From a virus (Duplodnaviria > Heunggongvirae > Uroviricota > Caudoviricetes), in IMG/VR virus record IMGVR_UViG_2713896909_000009, positions 1 through 64,000 of that record: a stretch of 64,000 nt of DNA, one strand, 5' to 3'. Numbering within the stretch: position 1 is the first letter of the stretch; the number at the start of each line of letters is the position of its first letter. A program made the position numbers and the translations under genes. Below the pieces are notes generated by a model. That model was given only the letters and a program-made list of their open reading frames with translations, had not been told where the DNA came from and searched no databases. Positions 45,332 to 53,332 of the stretch are shown here, in pieces.

Positions 45332-46701
45332 TAATAATCCTCTTGCCAGTCAGCACCGGCATAGTTATCAAACCGTGAGTATTGGCCGTTAAAAGCCAAT
45401 CTCACCGTGCCAATTGGGCCATTTCGTTGCTTACCAATAATCACCTCGGCAATGCCCTTCATTTCGCTATCCGGGTGATAAACCTCGTCGCGATACAGAA
45501 ACATGATCAGGTCTGCGTCCTGTTCAATTGCTCCAGATTCACGCAAATCTGAATTTACCGGTCGTTTGTCCGCACGCTGTTCAAGCGAGCGATTAAGTTG
45601 TGACAATGCCACCACCGGTACTTGTAATTCCTTCGCCAACGCCTTAAGTGAGCGAGAAATCTCGGCAATTTCCAGCGTTCGGTTGTCTTGCAGCTCGGGG
45701 ACGCGCATAAGTTGCAGGTAGTCGATCATGATCATGCTCAATCCGCCATTTTCTTTATAAACACGACGAGCGCGGGAACGAAGCTCTGTAGGTGTCAGGG
45801 CGCTTGAGTCATCAATAAAAATATTCTGCTTGTCCAACAGAATCCCCATTGCGCCAGAAACCCGCGCCCAATCCTCGTCGTTAAGTTGCCCAGTTCTAAT
45901 ACGAGTCTGATCAACACGTGCAAGAGAGGCCAGTGAGCGCATCATCAGCTGGTGGCTTGGCATCTCAAGGCTAAAAACCAATACAGGCTTATCGCTACGG
46001 ACTGCGGCATTTTCGACAAGATTCATCGCAAACGTGGTCTTTCCCATAGATGGGCGGGCGGCGACAATAATGAGATCGGATGGCTGAAGCCCTGCCGTCT
46101 TCTTATTGAGATCGGTAAATCCGGTATCAAGCCCCGTTACACCATCATGCGGTCGCTGAAACAACTCTTCTATGCGAGATACCGTTGCATCGAGAATGCT
46201 GGCGATATCTTTTGGACCACTACCGCTCTTTTGTCGTTTTTCAGCTATTTCAAAAACGCGGCGCTCGGCCATATCCAGCAATTCATTGCTGCTCCGGCCA
46301 TCTTGCGCATATCCAGCTTCGGCTATTTCATTTGCGACGGAAATCATTTCACGAACAACCGCGCGTTCACGAACGATATCCGCATAAGCACAAATATTTG
46401 CCGCGCTGGGCGTGTTCTTTGACATCTCCGCAAGGTAAGCAAAACCACCGGCGCGTTCTAATTTACCGTTCTGTTCAAGTGCTTCAGCAAGTGTTATCAA
46501 ATCAATCGGTTTGCCATGACTTAATAACCTCTCCATCTCACTGAAAATTTCACGATGAGCACTGGTATAAAAATCATCAGCAACTATACGATCTGCAACT
46601 TCATCCCAGCGGCAGTTATCAAGCATTAAGCCACCAAGCACAGCTTGTTCTGCACTAAGGGAATTTGGCATGGATTCAAGAGGGGATGCAGACATTAACA
46701 C
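45331..46701 (-). CDS. ban: DnaB-family replicative helicase
   Basis: 456 aa; Walker A 'ARPSMGKTTFAMN', 'IMIDYLQLM', DnaB N-terminal domain. Confidence 0.9.
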   Translation of the reverse strand: MLMSASPLESMPNSLSAEQAVLGGLMLDNCRWDEVADRIVADDFYTSAHREIFSEMERLLSHGKPIDLITLAEALEQNGKLERAGGFAYLAEMSKNTPSAANICAYADIVRERAVVREMISVANEIAEAGYAQDGRSSNELLDMAERRVFEIAEKRQKSGSGPKDIASILDATVSRIEELFQRPHDGVTGLDTGFTDLNKKTAGLQPSDLIIVAARPSMGKTTFAMNLVENAAVRSDKPVLVFSLEMPSHQLMMRSLASLARVDQTRIRTGQLNDEDWARVSGAMGILLDKQNIFIDDSSALTPTELRSRARRVYKENGGLSMIMIDYLQLMRVPELQDNRTLEIAEISRSLKALAKELQVPVVALSQLNRSLEQRADKRPVNSDLRESGAIEQDADLIMFLYRDEVYHPDSEMKGIAEVIIGKQRNGPIGTVRLAFNGQYSRFDNYAGADWQEDY

Positions 46702-46980
46702 TCCACCCTAGTGTGCTGAATGTCAGATATAGTCGGCATACTCAAATCACTCCTAACGATATGAGTCATCACCAGAAAATCAGGATTAATGCGCCGGACT
46801 CTTCCCGGCTGTCACACCGAATCGCCAGGGTGGTGAGTCCCTGAATCCGCTATCCTACCAACGGTGACTTGCACATTCCGGCTACCTGGTTTGTTGCCTG
46901 AGCTAGGGGAAAAGGCAACCCCTTTAACGTCACCAGACCGCTAACGACGCATGTGCCAGACGCCGTGTTACAACCAAATA

Positions 46981-47056
46981 TGGTGGCCCCTACCGGACTC
47001 GAACCGGTGACCGTGCGATTATGAGTCGCCAGCTCTAACCACTGAGCTAAAGGGCC
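46981..47056 (-). tRNA. tRNA-Ile2-like (anticodon CAT, ileX-type)
   Basis: 76 nt 'GGCCCTTTAGCTCAGTGGTTAGAGCTGGCGACTCATAATCGCACGGTCACCGGTTCGAGTCCGGTAGGGGCCACCA'; near-identical framework to E. coli ileX; CCA encoded. Confidence 0.8.
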
Positions 47057-47059
47057 GGA

Positions 47060-47167
47060 TTACTGTTTACTAAGTGCTTCAATGGCGCTAACAATGCCGC
47101 CTACAACTATGGCAACAATGATAATAAGAACAATTGGATACTTGTCAGCAAAATCCCAGAAGCCCAT
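47060..47167 (-). CDS. 35-aa hydrophobic peptide
   Basis: 'MGFWDFADKYPIVLIIIVAIVVGGIVSAIEALSKQ'; ATG overlaps the upstream stop (TGATG). Confidence 0.3.
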   Translation of the reverse strand: MGFWDFADKYPIVLIIIVAIVVGGIVSAIEALSKQ

Positions 47168-47331
47168 CACTGATCCTTCGAAGCTGTTTTAAATATCGGC
47201 CATACCAATGTTACAGCCACTGCCACCAACGCCCCGTCCGATAAAACTGACAGGATTGTGCTGGTGAAATCCACCAGCACGGACAGCAAGAGAAAACCAA
47301 TGGCGATTGCGATACGTGCCTTGCTTGCCAT
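47167..47331 (-). CDS. 54-aa membrane protein
   Basis: 'MASKARIAIAIGFLLLSVLVDFTSTILSVLSDGALVAVAVTLVWPIFKTASKDQ'; ATG overlaps the TerB-like gene stop (TAATG). Confidence 0.3.
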   Translation of the reverse strand: MASKARIAIAIGFLLLSVLVDFTSTILSVLSDGALVAVAVTLVWPIFKTASKDQ

Positions 47332-47765
47332 TACAGATAATCTTCCACACGAAGACCTAAACGACGGCCTACTTCTTCCAGTACTTTGTGTTCTGCTGGC
47401 TCGATTTCACCGTCCGCTTCTGCAATCGTCAGCATGTTAACGAATACTTCTTCCGCTTCTTTTGGGTCGTTTTTGATATCTTCAATTTCGCGAAGGATAT
47501 TCATGCGACCAACACGGAAGCCAGCTTCCAGTTGCTCGGTAAAGCGGGTAATTGTTGCGGTAATTTCGTTACCAAAATGACTAAGACGCGGATTAGAGCG
47601 GATAAGCTGATCAAGTTTCGCTGTTTCTTCTTTTTCGATTTCACCATCAGCGGCAGACACCAACAAACAGCCACCGATAATGGCCTCCATCAGATCGCGA
47701 TTCTCAACTTTTTTCAGCTCTACTTTTGCAGAAGCGACTTTCTTGCCGAACAATTTACCGAACAT
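47331..47765 (-). CDS. tciA: TerB-family protein (P1 TciA-like)
   Basis: 144 aa; two 'ADGEIE' repeats ('AADGEIEKEE', 'EADGEIEPAE'). Confidence 0.65.
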   Translation of the reverse strand: MFGKLFGKKVASAKVELKKVENRDLMEAIIGGCLLVSAADGEIEKEETAKLDQLIRSNPRLSHFGNEITATITRFTEQLEAGFRVGRMNILREIEDIKNDPKEAEEVFVNMLTIAEADGEIEPAEHKVLEEVGRRLGLRVEDYL

Positions 47766-48054
47766 TGGTTATCCCTCAATAAAAGTGACATATTTATTAG
47801 ATTGCGGTGCCGGGTGCCTCCCGGTGACGTTAACCAGTTAACAATTAACGCCGGAATGTTTAATCATCAAGGAGGATTGTTTTAACTGTTCCGCGTGCGC
47901 TTAGCCGCATTCACCACAACGGAAAGAGCATTTATGGCTCGCATCGCGGGAAAAAGCCCACGGTAGAGAGTCGAACTCTACAAATACTCTTACCTGTTGT
48001 GTGCTCCGTTTCGTGGAGCTAACGGCGGAGTAATCATCCGCCTCAAATTTATAA

Positions 48055-48468
48055 TTAACTGCTTGCTGATGGGTCATATTCGGTTAATTTAATCAACCGC
48101 GAATCAAGAGCTTTTCGATACTCAATCATGCTTTCGAGCTGATTTTGTAATTCCAACTGATTGTCCAAGCCCATGGCGAGGAAGTTATCTGTTCCGATAA
48201 ATCGAACTAGCTTATTTATGCGCTGGCACAGCTGAGCACGTTCGATAATCATTCGCTTGTGGTATTCTTCCAGACCATCAATTTTGCCCAACGGAGCTGC
48301 TATTTCATTAAATTCACGAAGTGGTATTTTTAGTTCGTTACCGAACACATCTACAACATCAATTTCAGATGCATTTTCTTTCGAAACTTTATCGACCTGA
48401 TAACTGGTGCTAACCACTAAAGAAATAACAAACTGCTCTTTCTGCATAATTACCGTTCTCGCACTCAT
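48055..48468 (-). CDS. hypothetical protein inside the tRNA/repeat region
   Basis: 137-aa AT-rich ORF; no motif recognised. Confidence 0.4.
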   Translation of the reverse strand: MSARTVIMQKEQFVISLVVSTSYQVDKVSKENASEIDVVDVFGNELKIPLREFNEIAAPLGKIDGLEEYHKRMIIERAQLCQRINKLVRFIGTDNFLAMGLDNQLELQNQLESMIEYRKALDSRLIKLTEYDPSASS

Positions 48469-49155
48469 TGGTGACAGTTTCTAAATAAATTGTGGTGGTC
48501 GGCGCTGATCTCCGACTGCGCCTCTTTTTGTTCATAACCCATAAGGCCGGTCAGTGCGCTTGATGACTGAGGCATCGATATTTACTACGCCGCCTCGTTG
48601 CCATAGGGCGGACTTGCGCGCCAGCAACACGCATTCACCACAATGTTGAGAACACTGGTTGTCACGCGGCAACGCAACATTTATTCATAGGTTGGGAAAT
48701 GAACCCGTTACGCCAATGTTCTCAACGTTGTAGTGCCGGTTACGGTTCCGGCCAGGCCTCTTCCTCAACGGGGTGTTCTCCGTACGGACTACCGTTTATT
48801 GGTCGTTCCTGCGGTTTATGTTGTGAAGCCAGATGCTTATCTTCTGGTTGCTTCAAAGAGCTGCACTTCATCACAACGGTAAGAGCACTCGATGCATTTA
48901 AGCCAAGCCCCATAAGGGAGAATGCCCTTACCTGTTGTGTTGTGATGACCGGTGCTGATCTCCGGCTTGCGGTTATTTCAGACTCTCACGGGCGTTTAAT
49001 TGCCCCGCCGGACAGCTCTTTTCCGCAATAGCTGCAATGTCTTTCGCGCATCAGCCTGCGCATTCATCACAACGGTAAGGGTACTTCGTAGGGATTCGAA
49101 CCCTCTGCCAAGCTCGGCGATCTCCGACGTCGCAAAATACCCTTACCTGTTGTGC

Positions 49156-49288
49156 TGGTGCCGGTTAACGGATTCGAACCGCTGACCTCTGGCCTAACAT
49201 CGAATCGTTGTCATTTGACCAGCAAGGCTGTCTACCGAAGTAGAAACGATGCTTTGGCTCTCGTGCTCTCCCACTGAGCTAAACCGGC
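49156..49288 (-). ncRNA. atypical 133-nt tRNA-like element
   Basis: 5' 'GCCGGTT TA GCTC AGTGGGA GAGC' and 3' 'AGCGG TTCGAAT CCGTT AACCGGC A CCA' with perfect 7-bp acceptor pairing, separated by about 83 nt with a UUCG hairpin and no canonical anticodon arm. Confidence 0.35.
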
Positions 49289-49290
49289 AT

Positions 49291-49366
49291 TGGCGATGGT
49301 GGGTGGATTCGAACCACCGACCAGTTAGTTAACAGCCAACTGCTCTAACCGCTGAGCTACACCATC
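49291..49366 (-). tRNA. tRNA-Asn (anticodon GTT)
   Basis: 76 nt 'GATGGTGTAGCTCAGCGGTTAGAGCAGTTGGCTGTTAACTAACTGGTCGGTGGTTCGAATCCACCCACCATCGCCA'; canonical cloverleaf. Confidence 0.8.
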
Positions 49367-50036
49367 ACTTGCCGGGTACGTCTCCGGCGAGGGCTTCCAC
49401 CTCCGTATGCTTTTCGGCGCACCGCGCCCTGGCTGCAATTCGGTAACAGGGGATGCATAACCCTGGCTTCCAGCGTGATTAGCGCTTTCAGCATGACGGG
49501 ATATACCCGTAAATTCGTGGAACTGTACCCAAAGTGCTGTTAAGCACCGCTGTTACGCTGAAAAGAAGACGCAACAGGAAAGGACGCTGACCAACAGATG
49601 GCCCCTTCTCGTTCATCTGGTTAATCACACCAGCGCCCTTACCTGTTGTGCCTCCCCGTTCCCTAATACACAGACGGGGACACTCTGCGGTCGATTTTTT
49701 GACGGGGGACGACTCATACCCCGTGGCGTCTGGCTTCTTAGGCCGCAGCCATCATCAGATCATCGTTTGCATTTACTTTAATGGTCAGTTTCTAAACCGC
49801 CGCAAAGTCGCTAACCATGACGAAAACCCTGAAAAAACGCCCACCCGAAGATGGGCAAACAGGATGTAAGCTCGTTACGCATTTCGGTATTGCCACTTAG
49901 GCGTATGGTCAACCTGGCAACTCGGCGTCATGAGGGGGAAGGAGTCACTACCCCGCCATACTTGCCGCCGCGCCTGTCGCGGCTAACAGCTAAATCGCTC
50001 TATAAATCACGATTCATTGAAACCATATTACACTAA

Positions 50037-50053
50037 TGAATTTATTAGAGCAA
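50037..50053. promoter_or_regulatory. C1 operator-like site overlapping the dmt stop codon
   Basis: 'gaatttattagagcaat' (reverse complement ATTGCTCTAATAAATTC). Confidence 0.5.
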
Positions 50054-53000
50054 TATAGCAATAACGTCATGAGCTACACCACGAGTGTTCCCCTTACAAG
50101 ACACAGAACGTCTGGCAAAAAGAGGTTCCACTCTGAAGCCACTGTCTTGGTAAAGCTCCCTGATGTTTGGCGCACCACTATTAGTAATGAGGATCTTTGC
50201 ACCTCGGCGATGAGCATCCATTAGCAGAGATACCAGGCGTTTTTGCTCTTCAAACTTAAAGTCATGACCGGAATAGTTTGTGAACCCCTCTGTATTGGGG
50301 AGCGGTTCATACGGAGGATCGCAAAAGATGACATCTCCTTCTCCGGCAGCTTCAATCACCGCTGAAAAATCACCACATACAAACTCAGAACGCCCTTCAG
50401 CACCGAGGAAGGCTTCCATCTCCTGTAATGGGAAATACGGAGTTTTATACTTCCCATAACCAACATTAAACTCACCGGCCTGGTTGTAACGCGTCAATCC
50501 GTTAAAACAATGTCGGTTCAGGAACAAAAACGCTGCTGCACGATGTAAATCATCATAGGCTTGTTTGTTAAACGCATTCCGTACTGCCAGGTATCCTTCC
50601 TGTGTGTTGTAGTCCTGGAAAAACCGATGCGCCAGAGTGATAAGTGAATGTCCCTCACGTTGCAGAGTCCTGTAAAAGTTAATCAGGTCAGCATTCACAT
50701 CATTTAGCAGATTTTCTTGATATCCGGCATTTATGAAAACAGCTCCGCCACCAACGAAAGGCTCGATCAGGCGCTTTCCGTCAGGTAAATGCCTAAAGAT
50801 TTGTTCAAGAACACCAAATTTTCCGCCGACCCATTTAAATATGGGACGGTCAAATTCTGCCGTTAGCTTAACTCTCCGTTCTGTTGCTTCATGATTTTTT
50901 GCCTGCTGATATGCAGCCTTAATAATCCGCTCACCAATCCATCGCATTACTGGTATCGCCATGCTATTGCCGATCGCTTTGTAACGCGGTCCGTCAGCTG
51001 CAAGCATCGCGGCCTCTTCTTCGCTTAAATCTGGATAGTGATTGCGAAGGTATGCCAGTTCATCTGAAGTAACTTTTTTACGCTTTTCCGTCGGGATCAA
51101 CGTATGCCCATCAGGAAAACCTTGCAGTCTTTCACATTCGACAGGGGTAAGACGGCGGACAGCTACTGCTGCGTTTCCTACGTCATAGCAAACGGCTGTT
51201 GTATTTTTGGCCATTAAAGATGGTGAAGTATTCTTAGTTGCAGCATGTTGTGTACCGCTCATACGTTCAGGAAAAGCCAATGTAACAAGATGCTCATGGC
51301 TTTCTTGCTCACGTGCCCGCAATGTACCATGCCCTTCTGACCAAAAACCTGCTCCTGTGCTGCTAAAAACTGCAAGGTCAGTGGCATCTTTAAAGTCTCT
51401 CGCCTTTACTGTCGATGCGGTTTCATCGCCAATATATTCCCCAAATGCCGCCATCCTGAAAGCGTTTACGGCTTTCGTCGATTTCATACCGGGGGTAATG
51501 TCAGCGTGTAGGCATGGATTTAGGCTTTCGCCACTGATTGCAGCGCCATTTGCAATAATGGCGGAAGCGATTTCCTTCTTTTTTCGGCTCGGCGCAATAT
51601 TCCGGCGCACGCCTTCGAACTCAAAAAGTACCGTTGCGGGATCGAGGTCTGTTCGAGCACTTGCGACAACAAACACACGTCGGCGTCGTTGTGCCACTCC
51701 GAAGTATTGGGCATCAAGGATTCTCCAGGCCACCTTTCGCTGCGGTCCATAAATACAACCACACTGCGGCCACTTTGGAGCATGGCAACCGGTTTTGCCA
51801 TCCCACCGCCAGAACGCGTTACTTTTTCCTGATTCAGGTCGATCACCTGGTTCAAATGGCGCATCTTCTCCAGCCAATCCGGCAAGGAAACATCCGAAGG
51901 CGTTATCTGCCGATGACAAGACTCCTGGGACATTTTCCCAGACGATAACGGCTGGTTTGAGAAATGACTCAGCCCGTTTGTCGTCAATTGCATTTGCAAG
52001 CTCCACATACTTTAAAGTTAGCGCGCCACGCTCATCATCAAGCCCACCACGTAATCCCGCGATACTGAATGCCTGACAGTTATGGACCACCGCACCATTG
52101 AGGATATAGGAATGATCACCTTCGACTTCTATGTTGTATACAGTATCTAGGCCTACCGATTTAAACTCTTTGACTGTTCGTAAAAGCATTCCATGAGCCA
52201 ATCTTGATTTACGTGACAATTTCTGCGGGCAGATTGTTACCTGATAATAATTCCGTTGATTTACCACGCGATCCTCGATCACTTTTTTGGGCTCAACTTC
52301 AATAAAGCTGACCGAAGAAACATAACCACAAGTCTGTGACACCCCCGCAACGCCCCAAGCAAGCGCAGGACTAACACTATTAATTCTAAATCCCGCTTTA
52401 CCACTTGGTGTCCCATCAGTATCAAGATAGCCTTGTAAAAACACATGACGCAATGGATGCGACATCACCCATGCAGGGATACGCTTAGCATGGCTTAACT
52501 CGCCAAAATGTTCATTAAGCCAATTGGCATAACACGTATCATTCAAGGTTACTTTGATGCTCCCTCGGATTTCTCTTGCCACGGAAAATATGTTTTCTGG
52601 TATGCGACAATGAAACTTTCTCAATTTCTGGCAATTTATGCAAAAAACAACCGCCTTCTTAGATTTACCTCTCCATCTCCTAATATATCCATCGCCAACA
52701 TAAGCGCCCGCAAGATACATAGCCTGTTCTTCAGACAAGAACCGAGAACAAATATCTGGAGATGCAATATTGAAATTAGTTAGAGCGCACCATTGATATC
52801 CTGGCATATCACATGCTGCTCGCCATTCCGGTTCAGACAACAACTCTCTCTTAAAATATGTGCCATTTTTCCGGGTGTTTTGGGCTTTCCACCGAACAGC
52901 CAGGAAGGGATGGTCATTGGTTGTTCTTATACCTAAAGGCTGCCCAACGGCATTAAGTAACCCCGTATTAGCTATTTTTGAACCAACTCTTTTTACTTGT

Positions 53001-53332
53001 TGTAACCGCCCGAGATGACTGACTACGTAATCGCCAGGGCAAACATCTTCTATTGGTTTATAACCATTTTTACAAAGAACCATATGCCCCGCGGTAAAAC
53101 ATGGTGTTCCCCCGACGAGCACGTCAGGGGATTCTATTTCCCCAGCCAGGACTTTTTTGGCAAGTTTAGTCATGTCGCCAAGGTTGGCGACATGGGGCCA
53201 GCGGTGCGCAAGAACGGCCGATGGAAAAGACTCGATTTCAGCAAACCACGCCGGACGCATACCCAACGGTTCCCAGGCAATACTCGCGGCTTCAATTCCA
53301 CTGCAAACAGATCCATAGCACAGCTCTTTCAC
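50045..53332 (-). CDS. dmt: Dmt bifunctional DNA methyltransferase (N-terminal C5-cytosine, C-terminal Dam-like) interrupted by an intein
   Basis: 1095 aa; C5 motifs '[12 protein letters not shown]', 'WENVPG', 'QRRRRVF', '[13 protein letters not shown]'; Dam motifs 'FKWVGGK', 'DPPY'; 754 aa after removing the 341-aa intein. Confidence 0.9.
52079..53101 (-). other. intein with LAGLIDADG homing-endonuclease domain inside dmt
   Basis: ORF residues 78-418: Cys1 'CFTAGHMVL', block B 'TTNDHPF', 'LAGAYVGDG' and 'LQGYLDTDG', C-terminal '[17 protein letters not shown]' followed by Cys+1; coordinates by arithmetic from the ORF start. Confidence 0.85.

What the first reader, a model, noticed from the sequence alone, without database searches (positions are those of the whole stretch)
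52079..53101. Intein with homing endonuclease inserted in the catalytic PCQ motif of the Dmt methyltransferase
The 1095-aa dmt ORF reads GGTP, then a 341-aa insert, then CQAFSIAG. The insert has all intein hallmarks: Cys1, block B 'TTNDHPF', two LAGLIDADG motifs ('LAGAYVGDG', 'LQGYLDTDG') and a terminal 'VVHN' followed by the extein Cys. Removing it restores a contiguous '[12 protein letters not shown]' motif IV and a 754-aa protein, the length I recall for P1 Dmt. So the catalytic cysteine of the C5-methyltransferase doubles as the intein +1 nucleophile, and methylation would depend on protein splicing.
Basis: partly seen in the sequence, partly recalled or inferred. Interest (0 to 1): 0.7.

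Follow-up and report, generated by a model that had tools for sequence, protein, structure and literature searches.

The report
Intein splitting P1-type Dmt methyltransferase
A self-splicing, mobile protein insert (an intein with a homing endonuclease) sits exactly at the catalytic cysteine of the cytosine-methylase half of the Dmt enzyme in about a third of P1-like phage-plasmids of E. coli and relatives; it is a textbook kind of element, but it seems not to have been reported in this well-studied phage family.

Summary
The dmt ORF (window 50045-53332, minus strand, 1095 aa) carries a 341-aa in-frame insert (52079-53101) between GGTP and CQAFSIAG. Reference phage P1 lacks exactly these 1023 nt and encodes the 754-aa protein.

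The insert is a canonical class-1 intein with a nested LAGLIDADG endonuclease:
- All splicing residues are present: Cys1, T61xxH64, block F, His-Asn, Cys+1.
- Both endonuclease Asp residues are present.
- Curated Pfam and NCBIfam intein models match.
- An AlphaFold model (pLDDT 92.7) best matches PI-SceI, TliVMA and PI-PfuI.

The +1 Cys aligns with the catalytic Cys81 of M.HhaI.

The element is polymorphic. It occurs in 152 of 492 dmt-bearing complete E. coli genomes, about 25% of PLSDB and IMG/VR P1-like records, and three extein length classes. It is 3-4 times less diverse than its flanks, has lower GC, and carries intein-linked synonymous flank markers. All of this is consistent with homing.

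Relatives occupy the same P|CQ site in more than 100 divergent C5-methyltransferase clusters.

Splicing and endonuclease activity are inferred, not shown. Only the C5 activity, not the C-terminal Dam domain, should need splicing.

Verdict: a real feature and a new member of a known kind. I found no paper on it. Interest is moderate.

The parts
50045..53332 (-). dmt precursor ORF: 1095 aa, 121.6 kDa, GTG start. It is the last gene of the uhr-hrdC(rdgC)-dmt operon.
   Evidence: operon and C1-controlled Pdmt as annotated in P1
53102..53332 (-). N-extein, aa 1-77. It holds C5-MTase motif I ([12 protein letters not shown]) and the first half of motif IV (GGTP), with Pro at -1.
52079..53101 (-). Intein: 341 aa, 38.4 kDa, pI 9.4, GC 42.7%.
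53063..53101 (-). Intein block A ([13 protein letters not shown]). Cys1 is the N-terminal nucleophile.
   Evidence: C1, F2, A4, G5 and G13 are invariant in homologues; all 157 family members have Cys1
52895..52933 (-). Intein block B ([13 protein letters not shown]), carrying the TxxH motif at T61 and H64.
   Evidence: T61 and H64 invariant
52688..52714 (-). LAGLIDADG motif 1 (LAGAYVGDG) with catalytic Asp137.
   Evidence: G132, D137 and G138 invariant; Pfam LAGLIDADG_3
52412..52438 (-). LAGLIDADG motif 2 (LQGYLDTDG) with catalytic Asp229. The invariant Lys206 lies at 52469-52495.
52079..52141 (-). Intein blocks F and G ([21 protein letters not shown]), with penultimate His340 and terminal Asn341.
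   Evidence: TIGR01443 above cut-off; aligns to the Spl DnaX mini-intein C-terminus; N341 invariant
50048..52078 (-). C-extein, aa 419-1095. It starts with the catalytic Cys (+1) of motif IV (CQAFSIAG, 52055-52078), then C5-MTase motifs VI (ENV, 51914-51943), VIII (QRRRR, 51665-51691) and X (GNSMAIPV, 50948-50971).
50057..50848 (-). Dam-type N6-adenine methyltransferase domain (aa 829-1092, DPPY at 50309-50320). It is not interrupted by the intein.
   Evidence: PF02086 193 bits, TIGR00571 252 bits
53102..53233 (-). Intein-linked flank tract in the N-extein. Synonymous markers are fixed at -1 (CCA vs CCT) and -22 (GAC vs GAT), and near-fixed at -48, -118 and -132.
   Evidence: 18 intein+ vs 55 intein- alleles; junction types

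Best explanation
This is a genuine class-1 intein with a nested LAGLIDADG homing endonuclease, inserted in the dmt gene of a P1-like phage-plasmid. Over the 2.2 kb tested, the window is identical to E. albertii plasmid pEA22_2.

Shown:
- It is a precise 1023-nt in-frame insertion between the Pro and Cys codons of motif IV ([12 protein letters not shown]) of the C5-cytosine methyltransferase domain.
- It has the full set of splicing residues and an intein plus endonuclease fold.
- It is polymorphic across otherwise homologous genes.

Inferred mechanism:
1. The 121.6-kDa precursor undergoes an N-S acyl shift at Pro77-Cys78.
2. The thiol of Cys419, which is the future catalytic nucleophile of the methyltransferase, performs trans-thioesterification.
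3. Asn418 cyclises with help from His417.
4. An S-N shift rebuilds the contiguous [12 protein letters not shown] loop in an 83.2-kDa Dmt and releases a 38.4-kDa basic protein.

C5 methylation should therefore require splicing. The separate C-terminal Dam domain probably does not.

The freed intein is predicted to cut intein-less dmt alleles near the CCT|TGT junction when two P1-like elements meet in one cell. Repair from the intein-bearing copy would then copy in the intein plus a short upstream tract (homing).
For: - Exact coordinates and junctions.
- Clean 1023-nt gap in P1 dmt (754 aa).
- Curated models above cut-off: LAGLIDADG_3, Hint_2 and TIGR01443.
- After virtual splicing the PF00145 match rises from 105.7 to 126.2 bits and becomes contiguous over motifs I-VI. 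[12 protein letters not shown] aligns to M.HhaI GFPCQAFSISG, with the +1 Cys on Cys81.
- Invariant in homologues of 29-52% identity: C1, T61, H64, D137/G138, K206, G230, D329 and N341, plus Cys+1 in all of them.
- AF2 model pLDDT 92.7, pTM 0.89. Foldseek top 16 hits are all intein-endonucleases: PI-SceI at E 9e-17, TliVMA at TMq 0.63, then PI-PfuI, PhoVMA and PI-TkoII.
- Presence/absence polymorphism: 5 of 24 phage records; 124-133 of 501 plasmids; 20 of 85 IMG/VR contigs; 152 of 492 dmt-bearing complete E. coli genomes.
- Extein length classes of 754, 672 and 807 aa each occur with and without the intein. There are 13 flank haplotypes among 18 intein+ alleles.
- Intein nucleotide diversity is 0.53%, against 1.7-2.3% in the adjacent exteins of the same genomes.
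- Intein GC is 42.7%, against 48-55% in the flanks.
- Intein-private synonymous markers lie at -1 and -22 and decay by about -130.
- All 19 sampled intein copies are full length without stops.
- The same P|CQ site is occupied by related inteins in more than 100 clusters defined at 50% identity, including a mini-intein.
Against: - There are no experimental data on splicing or cleavage.
- The -1 residue is Pro. From my own knowledge, Pro at -1 blocks or slows the first step in engineered contexts such as the Sce VMA1 intein. About 121 of 157 family members also have Pro at -1, which argues the family tolerates it.
- Polymorphism within the intein is 11 non-synonymous to 10 synonymous sites, so purifying selection is only moderate.
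- The fixed flank markers and low diversity would also fit a single ancestral invasion followed by ordinary recombination, without current endonuclease activity.
- Whether the C5 domain of Dmt is active at all is annotated only as 'perhaps' in P1.
- 2 of 16 complete intein+ loci have a disrupted N-extein.
Confidence: 0.85

Rival explanations
1. The intein splices, but its endonuclease is inactive or has no cleavable targets left. Its present distribution would then reflect one old invasion plus vertical descent and general homologous recombination among P1-like elements, not ongoing homing.
For: All intein+ alleles share the same -1 and -22 markers, and no intein-less allele carries them. That pattern is compatible with a single origin. 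P1-like dmt is highly mosaic anyway. The non-synonymous to synonymous ratio within the intein is 11:10.
Against: Both catalytic Asp residues and the invariant Lys206 are intact. No copy is degraded or shortened among 19 sampled, and all 153 E. coli places cover at least 80% of the intein. The intein is 3-4 times less diverse than its flanks. It sits on three extein length classes and 13 flank haplotypes.
Confidence: 0.3
2. The intein is non-splicing (a dead end). The insert would permanently disrupt the C5-methyltransferase domain, and the gene would be kept only for its C-terminal Dam domain.
For: Pro at -1 is unfavourable for the first splicing step in engineered inteins (own knowledge). The C5 activity of P1 Dmt is only putative. 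Lab P1 itself carries a Gly-to-Trp change in motif IV, which suggests the C5 function may be dispensable.
Against: Every residue needed for the four splicing steps is conserved in this copy and across 29-52% identical homologues. More than 100 divergent family members keep Pro at -1 together with Cys1, His-Asn and Cys+1, which is hard to explain without function. C5 motifs I, IV, VI, VIII and X remain intact in the exteins.
Confidence: 0.08
3. The segment is an ordinary conserved Dmt domain, or a fused free-standing endonuclease gene or intron, rather than an intein.
For: Database annotation calls the whole protein simply 'Dam family site-specific DNA-(adenine-N6)-methyltransferase'.
Against: About 70% of dmt alleles lack it precisely. 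It is in frame, with no internal start or stop. The HINT halves flank the endonuclease domain in the model. Intein-specific models match.
Confidence: 0.01

Closest known systems
PI-SceI (S. cerevisiae VMA1 intein) and the archaeal TliVMA, PhoVMA, PI-PfuI and PI-TkoII intein-endonucleases
   Same: Class-1 splicing chemistry: Cys1, TxxH, His-Asn and Cys+1. A LAGLIDADG double-motif endonuclease is nested in a HINT domain. These are the best structural matches (E 9e-17 to 6e-9, TMq 0.55-0.63).
   Different: Only 11-16% sequence identity. The host proteins differ (V-ATPase, RNR, DNA polymerase). At 341 aa this intein is smaller than the top structural matches (361-537 residues in the deposited chains). 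The host here is a temperate phage-plasmid of enterobacteria.
Actinobacteriophage DNA-methylase inteins (Kelley et al. 2016, PMC5050341; Gosselin et al. 2023, PMC9957025; bioRxiv 10.1101/2025.01.02.630785)
   Same: LAGLIDADG inteins in orphan phage DNA methyltransferases. They have patchy distribution, and intein divergence is lower than extein divergence. The 2025 preprint lists C-5 methylases (IPR001525) among hosts.
   Different: The cases described in detail are N6/N4 methylases (PF01555). I found no description of insertion at the catalytic Cys of motif IV, and none in P1-like or enterobacterial elements. Actinobacterial relatives found here are only 29-31% identical and sit in a 'SPE|CTNHS' variant of the motif.
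Uncharacterised database family of inteins at G-G-x-P|C-Q of C5-methyltransferases (e.g. the Mannheimia haemolytica 'Hint domain-containing protein' P0010, and metagenomic P0007, P0009, P0011 and P0012)
   Same: Same insertion site, same blocks, 47-52% identity to the closest members, and a homologous Dmt-like extein in the closest ones. 116 of 157 full-length hits have 'CQ' at +1/+2.
   Different: These are known only as automatic annotations ('Hint domain-containing', 'DOD-type homing endonuclease'). Some are mini-inteins (P0022). Others sit in different exteins: P0021 in an unknown protein, P0024 in an HNH protein, and P0047, P0087 and P0158 after an ENV motif.
Bacterial intein-like (BIL) domains
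   Same: HINT fold. A BIL structure gave a weak sequence hit (2lwy, E 0.81).
   Different: From my own knowledge, BIL domains lack a nested endonuclease and sit in variable regions of non-conserved proteins. This element has an endonuclease, sits in a conserved catalytic motif, and has a precise empty-site allele.

Membership tests
Class-1 intein | Nucleophile (Cys/Ser/Thr) at intein position 1 | tested here: met
   Cys1. It is invariant in 12 aligned homologues and in 157 of 157 family hits.
Class-1 intein | Block B TxxH motif | tested here: met
   T61-N-D-H64; both T and H are invariant.
Class-1 intein | C-terminal blocks F and G ending in His-Asn | tested here: met
   [25 protein letters not shown]01443 scores 26-28.9 bits against a cut-off of 15.6. 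140 of 157 family members end in HN.
Class-1 intein | Nucleophile (Cys/Ser/Thr) at the +1 extein position | tested here: met
   Cys419. It aligns to M.HhaI Cys81.
Class-1 intein | HINT fold formed by the N- and C-terminal segments | tested here: met
   AF2 pLDDT 92.7. Foldseek hits include PI-SceI and TliVMA, plus mini-inteins and splicing domains (Prp8, GyrA, gp41-1).
Class-1 intein | In-frame insertion at a conserved site, with precise intein-less alleles in homologues | tested here: met
   There is a 1023-nt clean gap in P1. 65 of 85 IMG/VR alleles are empty at the same junction.
Class-1 intein | Autocatalytic protein splicing that yields ligated exteins and free intein | not testable with these tools
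   This needs expression and western blot or mass spectrometry. The predicted products are 121.6 kDa going to 83.2 + 38.4 kDa.
LAGLIDADG homing endonuclease (intein-encoded, PI- type) | Two LAGLIDADG motifs, each with a catalytic acidic residue | tested here: met
   LAGAYVGDG (D137) and LQGYLDTDG (D229). D137 is invariant and D229 is at least 90% conserved. PF14528 scores 31.8 bits against a cut-off of 22.5.
LAGLIDADG homing endonuclease (intein-encoded, PI- type) | Pseudo-dimeric alpha-beta-beta-alpha-beta-beta-alpha fold | tested here: met
   The secondary structure of residues ~124-267 and Foldseek matches to I-SceI, I-AniI and I-OnuI.
LAGLIDADG homing endonuclease (intein-encoded, PI- type) | Site-specific cleavage of the intein-less allele, and homing | not testable with these tools
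   There is indirect support only: patchy distribution, lower diversity than the flanks, and linked flank markers.
C5 DNA cytosine methyltransferase (extein, PF00145) | Motifs I, IV (PCQ), VI (ENV), VIII (QRR) and X in order, once the insert is removed | tested here: met
   PF00145 scores 126.2 bits and is contiguous over residues 8-135 after virtual splicing. Motifs were located. The extein aligns to M.HhaI and M.HaeIII.
C5 DNA cytosine methyltransferase (extein, PF00145) | Demonstrated m5C methylation activity | not testable with these tools
   The P1 annotation says only 'perhaps at C5 cytosine'.
Bacterial intein-like (BIL) domain | No nested endonuclease; located in variable, non-conserved host proteins | tested here: not met
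   An endonuclease domain is present, and the insertion is in a conserved catalytic motif.

The most novel reading that the evidence does not exclude
The intein is not merely selfish.

One possibility follows from Cys1 and the catalytic Cys+1 flanking the splice junction. Splicing could be conditional, for example controlled by redox state or a disulfide. It would then act as a post-translational switch that times or restricts C5 methylation by Dmt during P1 lytic growth.

The other possibility is that the released endonuclease works as a weapon. It would cut the dmt gene of competing intein-less P1-like phage-plasmids during superinfection and give intein carriers a competitive advantage.
Probability: 0.12. 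Interest if true: 0.8.

Novelty: new member of a known kind. Interest (0 to 1): 0.5.

Why it matters
- P1 is one of the classic model phages, and its relatives are common phage-plasmids that carry resistance genes. The intein is in about 31% of dmt-bearing complete E. coli genomes, or 2.8% of all complete E. coli genomes sampled. Yet the protein is annotated simply as a Dam-family methylase.
- To my knowledge E. coli is usually treated as an intein-free host. I could not confirm that statement in the literature searches.
- A natural, full-length and apparently active intein-endonuclease in an E. coli-resident element gives a genetically tractable system. It could be used to measure intein homing, co-conversion and fitness effects in phage-plasmid populations.
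- The element also points to a very large and barely described intein family that uses the catalytic cysteine of C5 DNA methyltransferases as its +1 nucleophile. In that family enzyme activity is strictly coupled to splicing.
- In practice, annotation pipelines and methylome interpretation for these plasmids should take the intein into account.

Tried and rejected
- Ten literature searches found no report of an intein in P1, Dmt or phage-plasmids. They also found no quotable statement that E. coli lacks inteins. The library excludes most subscription journals, so absence is not proof.
- The methylase inteins of Kelley 2016 and Gosselin 2023 turned out to be in N6/N4 enzymes, not this site.
- A sequence-only PDB search with the intein gave only weak hits (Spl DnaX at E 0.0012, PI-PkoII at 0.013). 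The fold search was needed.
- Pfam Intein_splicing (PF14890) is below its gathering score (18-22 bits against 35.8), and Hint_2 is only just at threshold. I did not rely on them alone.
- A first MAFFT run on long flanks timed out and was repeated with shorter flanks.
- The synonymous/non-synonymous count for the 231-nt N-extein is unreliable, because the upstream alignment contains gaps that can shift the frame. I did not use it.
- I considered that the 'GIY-YIG nuclease' ORF at 58307-59116 might be a second mobile endonuclease. It is present at the same place in 12 of the 17 matching P1-like phage records at full coverage, so I dropped it as ordinary.
- I considered that the Trp in P1's motif IV might mark a widespread resistant homing site. 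It is absent from all 85 IMG/VR alleles, so it looks private to the reference P1 sequence.
Full report
**Observation.** The minus-strand ORF at window 50045-53332 encodes 1095 aa. Residues 78-418 map to window 52079-53101 (341 aa, 1023 nt). They begin with CFTAGHM directly after ...VLVGGTP and end with ...NGAVVHN directly before CQAFSIAG. Deleting the segment gives a 754-aa protein with a contiguous [12 protein letters not shown]. The reference P1 dmt gene (NC_005856) is 754 aa, and a DNA alignment shows a single clean 1023-nt gap at exactly this place.

**Source of the window.** The region is 100% identical over the 2.2 kb tested to plasmid pEA22_2 of Escherichia albertii BIA_22 (NZ_CP117630.1), a 96-kb P1-like phage-plasmid. 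dmt is the last gene of the uhr-hrdC(rdgC)-dmt unit. In P1 this unit is driven by the C1-repressed promoter Pdmt.

**Is it an intein?**
- *Family models.* Pfam finds LAGLIDADG_3 (31.8 bits, cut-off 22.5) and Hint_2 (28.5-29.3 bits, cut-off 28.4). Intein_splicing is below threshold. NCBIfam finds TIGR01443 intein_Cterm at 26-28.9 bits against a cut-off of 15.6. It also gives weak matches to intein-bearing RNR, GyrA, RFC, RtcB and DnaB models through the insert.
- *Homologues.* Proteins 29-52% identical to the insert were recovered and aligned. Invariant positions are C1, F2, A4, G5 (block A), T61 and H64 (block B TxxH), G132, D137 and G138 (LAGLIDADG 1), K206, G230 (with D229 at least 90% conserved; LAGLIDADG 2), V321, N323, V326 and D329 (block F), and V339 and N341 (block G). 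Cys is at +1 in all of them.
- *Structure.* An AlphaFold2 model built on this alignment is very confident (mean pLDDT 92.7, pTM 0.89). Its 16 best Foldseek matches in the PDB are all bifunctional intein-endonucleases: PI-SceI (E 9e-17), TliVMA (TMq 0.63), PI-PfuI, PhoVMA and PI-TkoII. These are followed by free LAGLIDADG enzymes (I-SceI, I-AniI, I-OnuI) and mini-inteins or splicing domains (Prp8, GyrA, gp41-1).
- Every sequence and fold criterion for a class-1 intein with a nested LAGLIDADG endonuclease is met. Catalysis itself cannot be tested here.

**Where it sits.** After virtual splicing the PF00145 match rises from 105.7 to 126.2 bits and becomes one contiguous stretch over motifs I-VI. 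The spliced N-terminus aligns to M.HhaI as [16 protein letters not shown] against diLcaGFPCQAFSISG. Counting along the chain, the +1 Cys falls on HhaI residue 81, which established knowledge identifies as the catalytic nucleophile. Motifs VI (ENV), VIII (QRRRR) and X (GNSMAIPV) are intact downstream. The Dam-type N6-adenine domain (aa 829-1092) is a separate C-terminal module. It is the function known to matter for P1 pac cleavage in Dam- hosts (PMC12707154).

**Population evidence.** The intein is a presence/absence polymorphism.

| Collection | With intein | Total |
|---|---|---|
| INPHARED phage records (RCS47 and vB_EcoM-Ro157c2YLVW, two records each, plus OP279344; P1, P7, SJ46 and JL22 lack it) | 5 | 24 |
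| PLSDB dmt-bearing plasmids | 124-133 | 501 |
| IMG/VR contigs | 20 | 85 |
| Complete E. coli genomes carrying dmt | 152 | 492 |

The 152 carriers are out of 5,426 complete E. coli genomes. Of the 153 intein matches, 148 are on plasmids and 5 on chromosomes.

- All 19 sampled copies are exactly 1023 nt, without stops, and differ from the window's copy at no more than 10 of 1023 nt.
- Extein length classes of 754, 672 and 807 aa each occur with the intein (1095, 1013, 1148 aa) and without it.
- The 18 intein+ alleles with enough flank fall into 13 flank haplotypes.
- Within the same genomes the intein is 3-4 times less diverse (pi 0.53%) than the adjacent N-extein (2.3%) and C-extein (1.7%).
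- Its GC content is 42.7%, against 55% and 48% for the flanks.
- Two synonymous flank markers separate the two allele types completely. At -1 (CCA vs CCT) and -22 (GAC vs GAT), the intein+ state is 18/18 and the intein- state 55/55. Further intein-private alleles at -48, -118 and -132 are present in 14-15 of 18. Downstream, the intein+ haplotype is shared with about 40% of empty alleles.

This is what is expected for an element that entered from outside with a short co-converted upstream tract and has since moved, or been recombined, onto diverse dmt backgrounds. It does not by itself prove that the endonuclease is active today.

**Wider family.** A profile of nine intein sequences searched against 1.84 billion representatives gave 3,055 hits at E ≤ 1e-30. 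Among 157 hits covering the whole profile:
- all have Cys1;
- 140 end in His-Asn;
- 116 have 'CQ' at +1/+2;
- about 121 have Pro at -1, typically as G-G-x-P|C-Q-x-x-S-x-A-G.

The catalytic-cysteine site of C5 methyltransferases is therefore a heavily used intein insertion point across bacteria and phages. It includes an actinobacterial 'SPE|CTNHS' variant and at least one mini-intein (P0022). This weakens the concern, from my own knowledge of engineered inteins such as Sce VMA1, that Pro at -1 blocks the first splicing step.

**Mechanism (inferred).**
1. Translation gives a 121.6-kDa precursor in which the motif-IV loop is split.
2. An N-S acyl shift occurs at Pro77-Cys78.
3. Cys419 attacks the thioester.
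4. Asn418 cyclises, assisted by His417.
5. An S-N shift restores a Pro-Cys peptide bond with a free catalytic thiol.

The products are Dmt of 83.2 kDa and a basic 38.4-kDa endonuclease. The endonuclease is predicted to cut empty dmt alleles around CCT|TGT when two P1-like elements share a cell. Recombinational repair then copies the intein and its flank.

**Rivals.**
- A splicing-competent intein with a dead endonuclease, spread only by descent and general recombination, is not excluded (confidence about 0.3).
- A non-splicing relic that permanently inactivates the C5 domain is unlikely given the complete conservation of the splicing residues (about 0.08).
- An ordinary domain or non-intein insertion is refuted.

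**Comparison with what is known.** Inteins in phage DNA methylases are documented for actinophage N6/N4 enzymes (PMC5050341, PMC9957025). A 2025 preprint lists C-5 methylases among actinophage intein hosts. None of ten literature searches found a report of an intein in P1, Dmt or phage-plasmids. The library lacks most subscription journals. GenBank and RefSeq annotate the protein as a Dam-family or DNA methyltransferase, and only fragments are labelled 'Hint domain-containing'.

**Verdict.** This is a real and well-supported feature. It is a new member of a known kind rather than a new mechanism. Interest is moderate (0.5). The points in its favour are that it lies in a model phage family, is frequent in E. 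coli, couples enzyme activity to splicing through a shared cysteine, and is experimentally very tractable.

Noticed in passing
L002:2089-2091 (NC_005856 dmt codon 74); window equivalent 53111-53113: Reference P1 reads VWGTPCQ (TGG) in motif IV. The window, RCS47, OP279344 and all 85 IMG/VR alleles read VGGTPCQ (GGG). The reference P1 sequence may carry a private Gly-to-Trp change in the catalytic loop of the C5 domain. That could explain why C5 activity of P1 Dmt is only 'perhaps'.
   Followed up: partly
window 58307-59116 (+): A 269-aa ORF between repA and parA is annotated by PGAP as a GIY-YIG nuclease family protein, with a Pfam T5orf172 domain (26 bits). It is present at the same position in 12 of the 17 matching P1-like phage records at full coverage, including SJ46, RCS47 and JL22. 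It is therefore an ordinary conserved gene of the family, not an obvious mobile insert.
   Followed up: partly
window 46696-50044: About 3.3 kb separates the dmt stop from dnaB/ban. It holds a TerB-family protein, a DUF3927 protein and hypothetical ORFs. In reference P1 the dmt stop overlaps the ban promoter and operator. This looks like an accessory-gene insertion or a variable spot.
   Followed up: no
window ~50620-50965 and ~51160-51600 (dmt C-extein): dmt is strongly mosaic. A ~340-nt block around motif X and the start of the Dam domain differs by about 20% from P1, RCS47 and OP279344. OP279344 has several indels between the C5 and Dam domains. Extein length classes of 754, 672, 807 and 862 aa exist.
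   Followed up: partly
L003 (OP279344.1, 'Escherichia phage P1 isolate del res del mod'): A record named phage P1, propagated in MG1655 Z1, carries the intein in a 1013-aa Dmt. At least one laboratory 'P1' derivative is therefore intein-positive and differs from the reference P1 dmt.
   Followed up: no
L006 and L080 (IMG/VR contigs): Two of 16 complete intein+ loci have a disrupted N-extein. L006 has a nonsense codon at residue 62. L080 has a garbled, poly-C-containing 5' end, which may be an assembly artefact.
   Followed up: partly
proteins P0150, P0047/P0087/P0158, P0021, P0024, P0022: The family shows several variants. One member has Ser instead of the catalytic Cys at +1 (HN|SQGFSLAG). 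Three members are inserted after an 'ENV' motif (..WENV|CF...HN|CGAFSS). Members also occur in an unknown extein (FHPP|C..|CTRLCNSG) and in an HNH protein. There is a 141-aa mini-intein at the same GGTP|CQ site.
   Followed up: no
window 52508-52783 (+): A 91-aa antisense ORF lies inside the intein-coding region. There is no supporting evidence and it is probably spurious.
   Followed up: no
window 52640-52642 (intein residue 154): The window's intein has Cys154, where all 18 other sampled copies have Gly. This is a private substitution in the endonuclease domain of the E. albertii copy.
   Followed up: no
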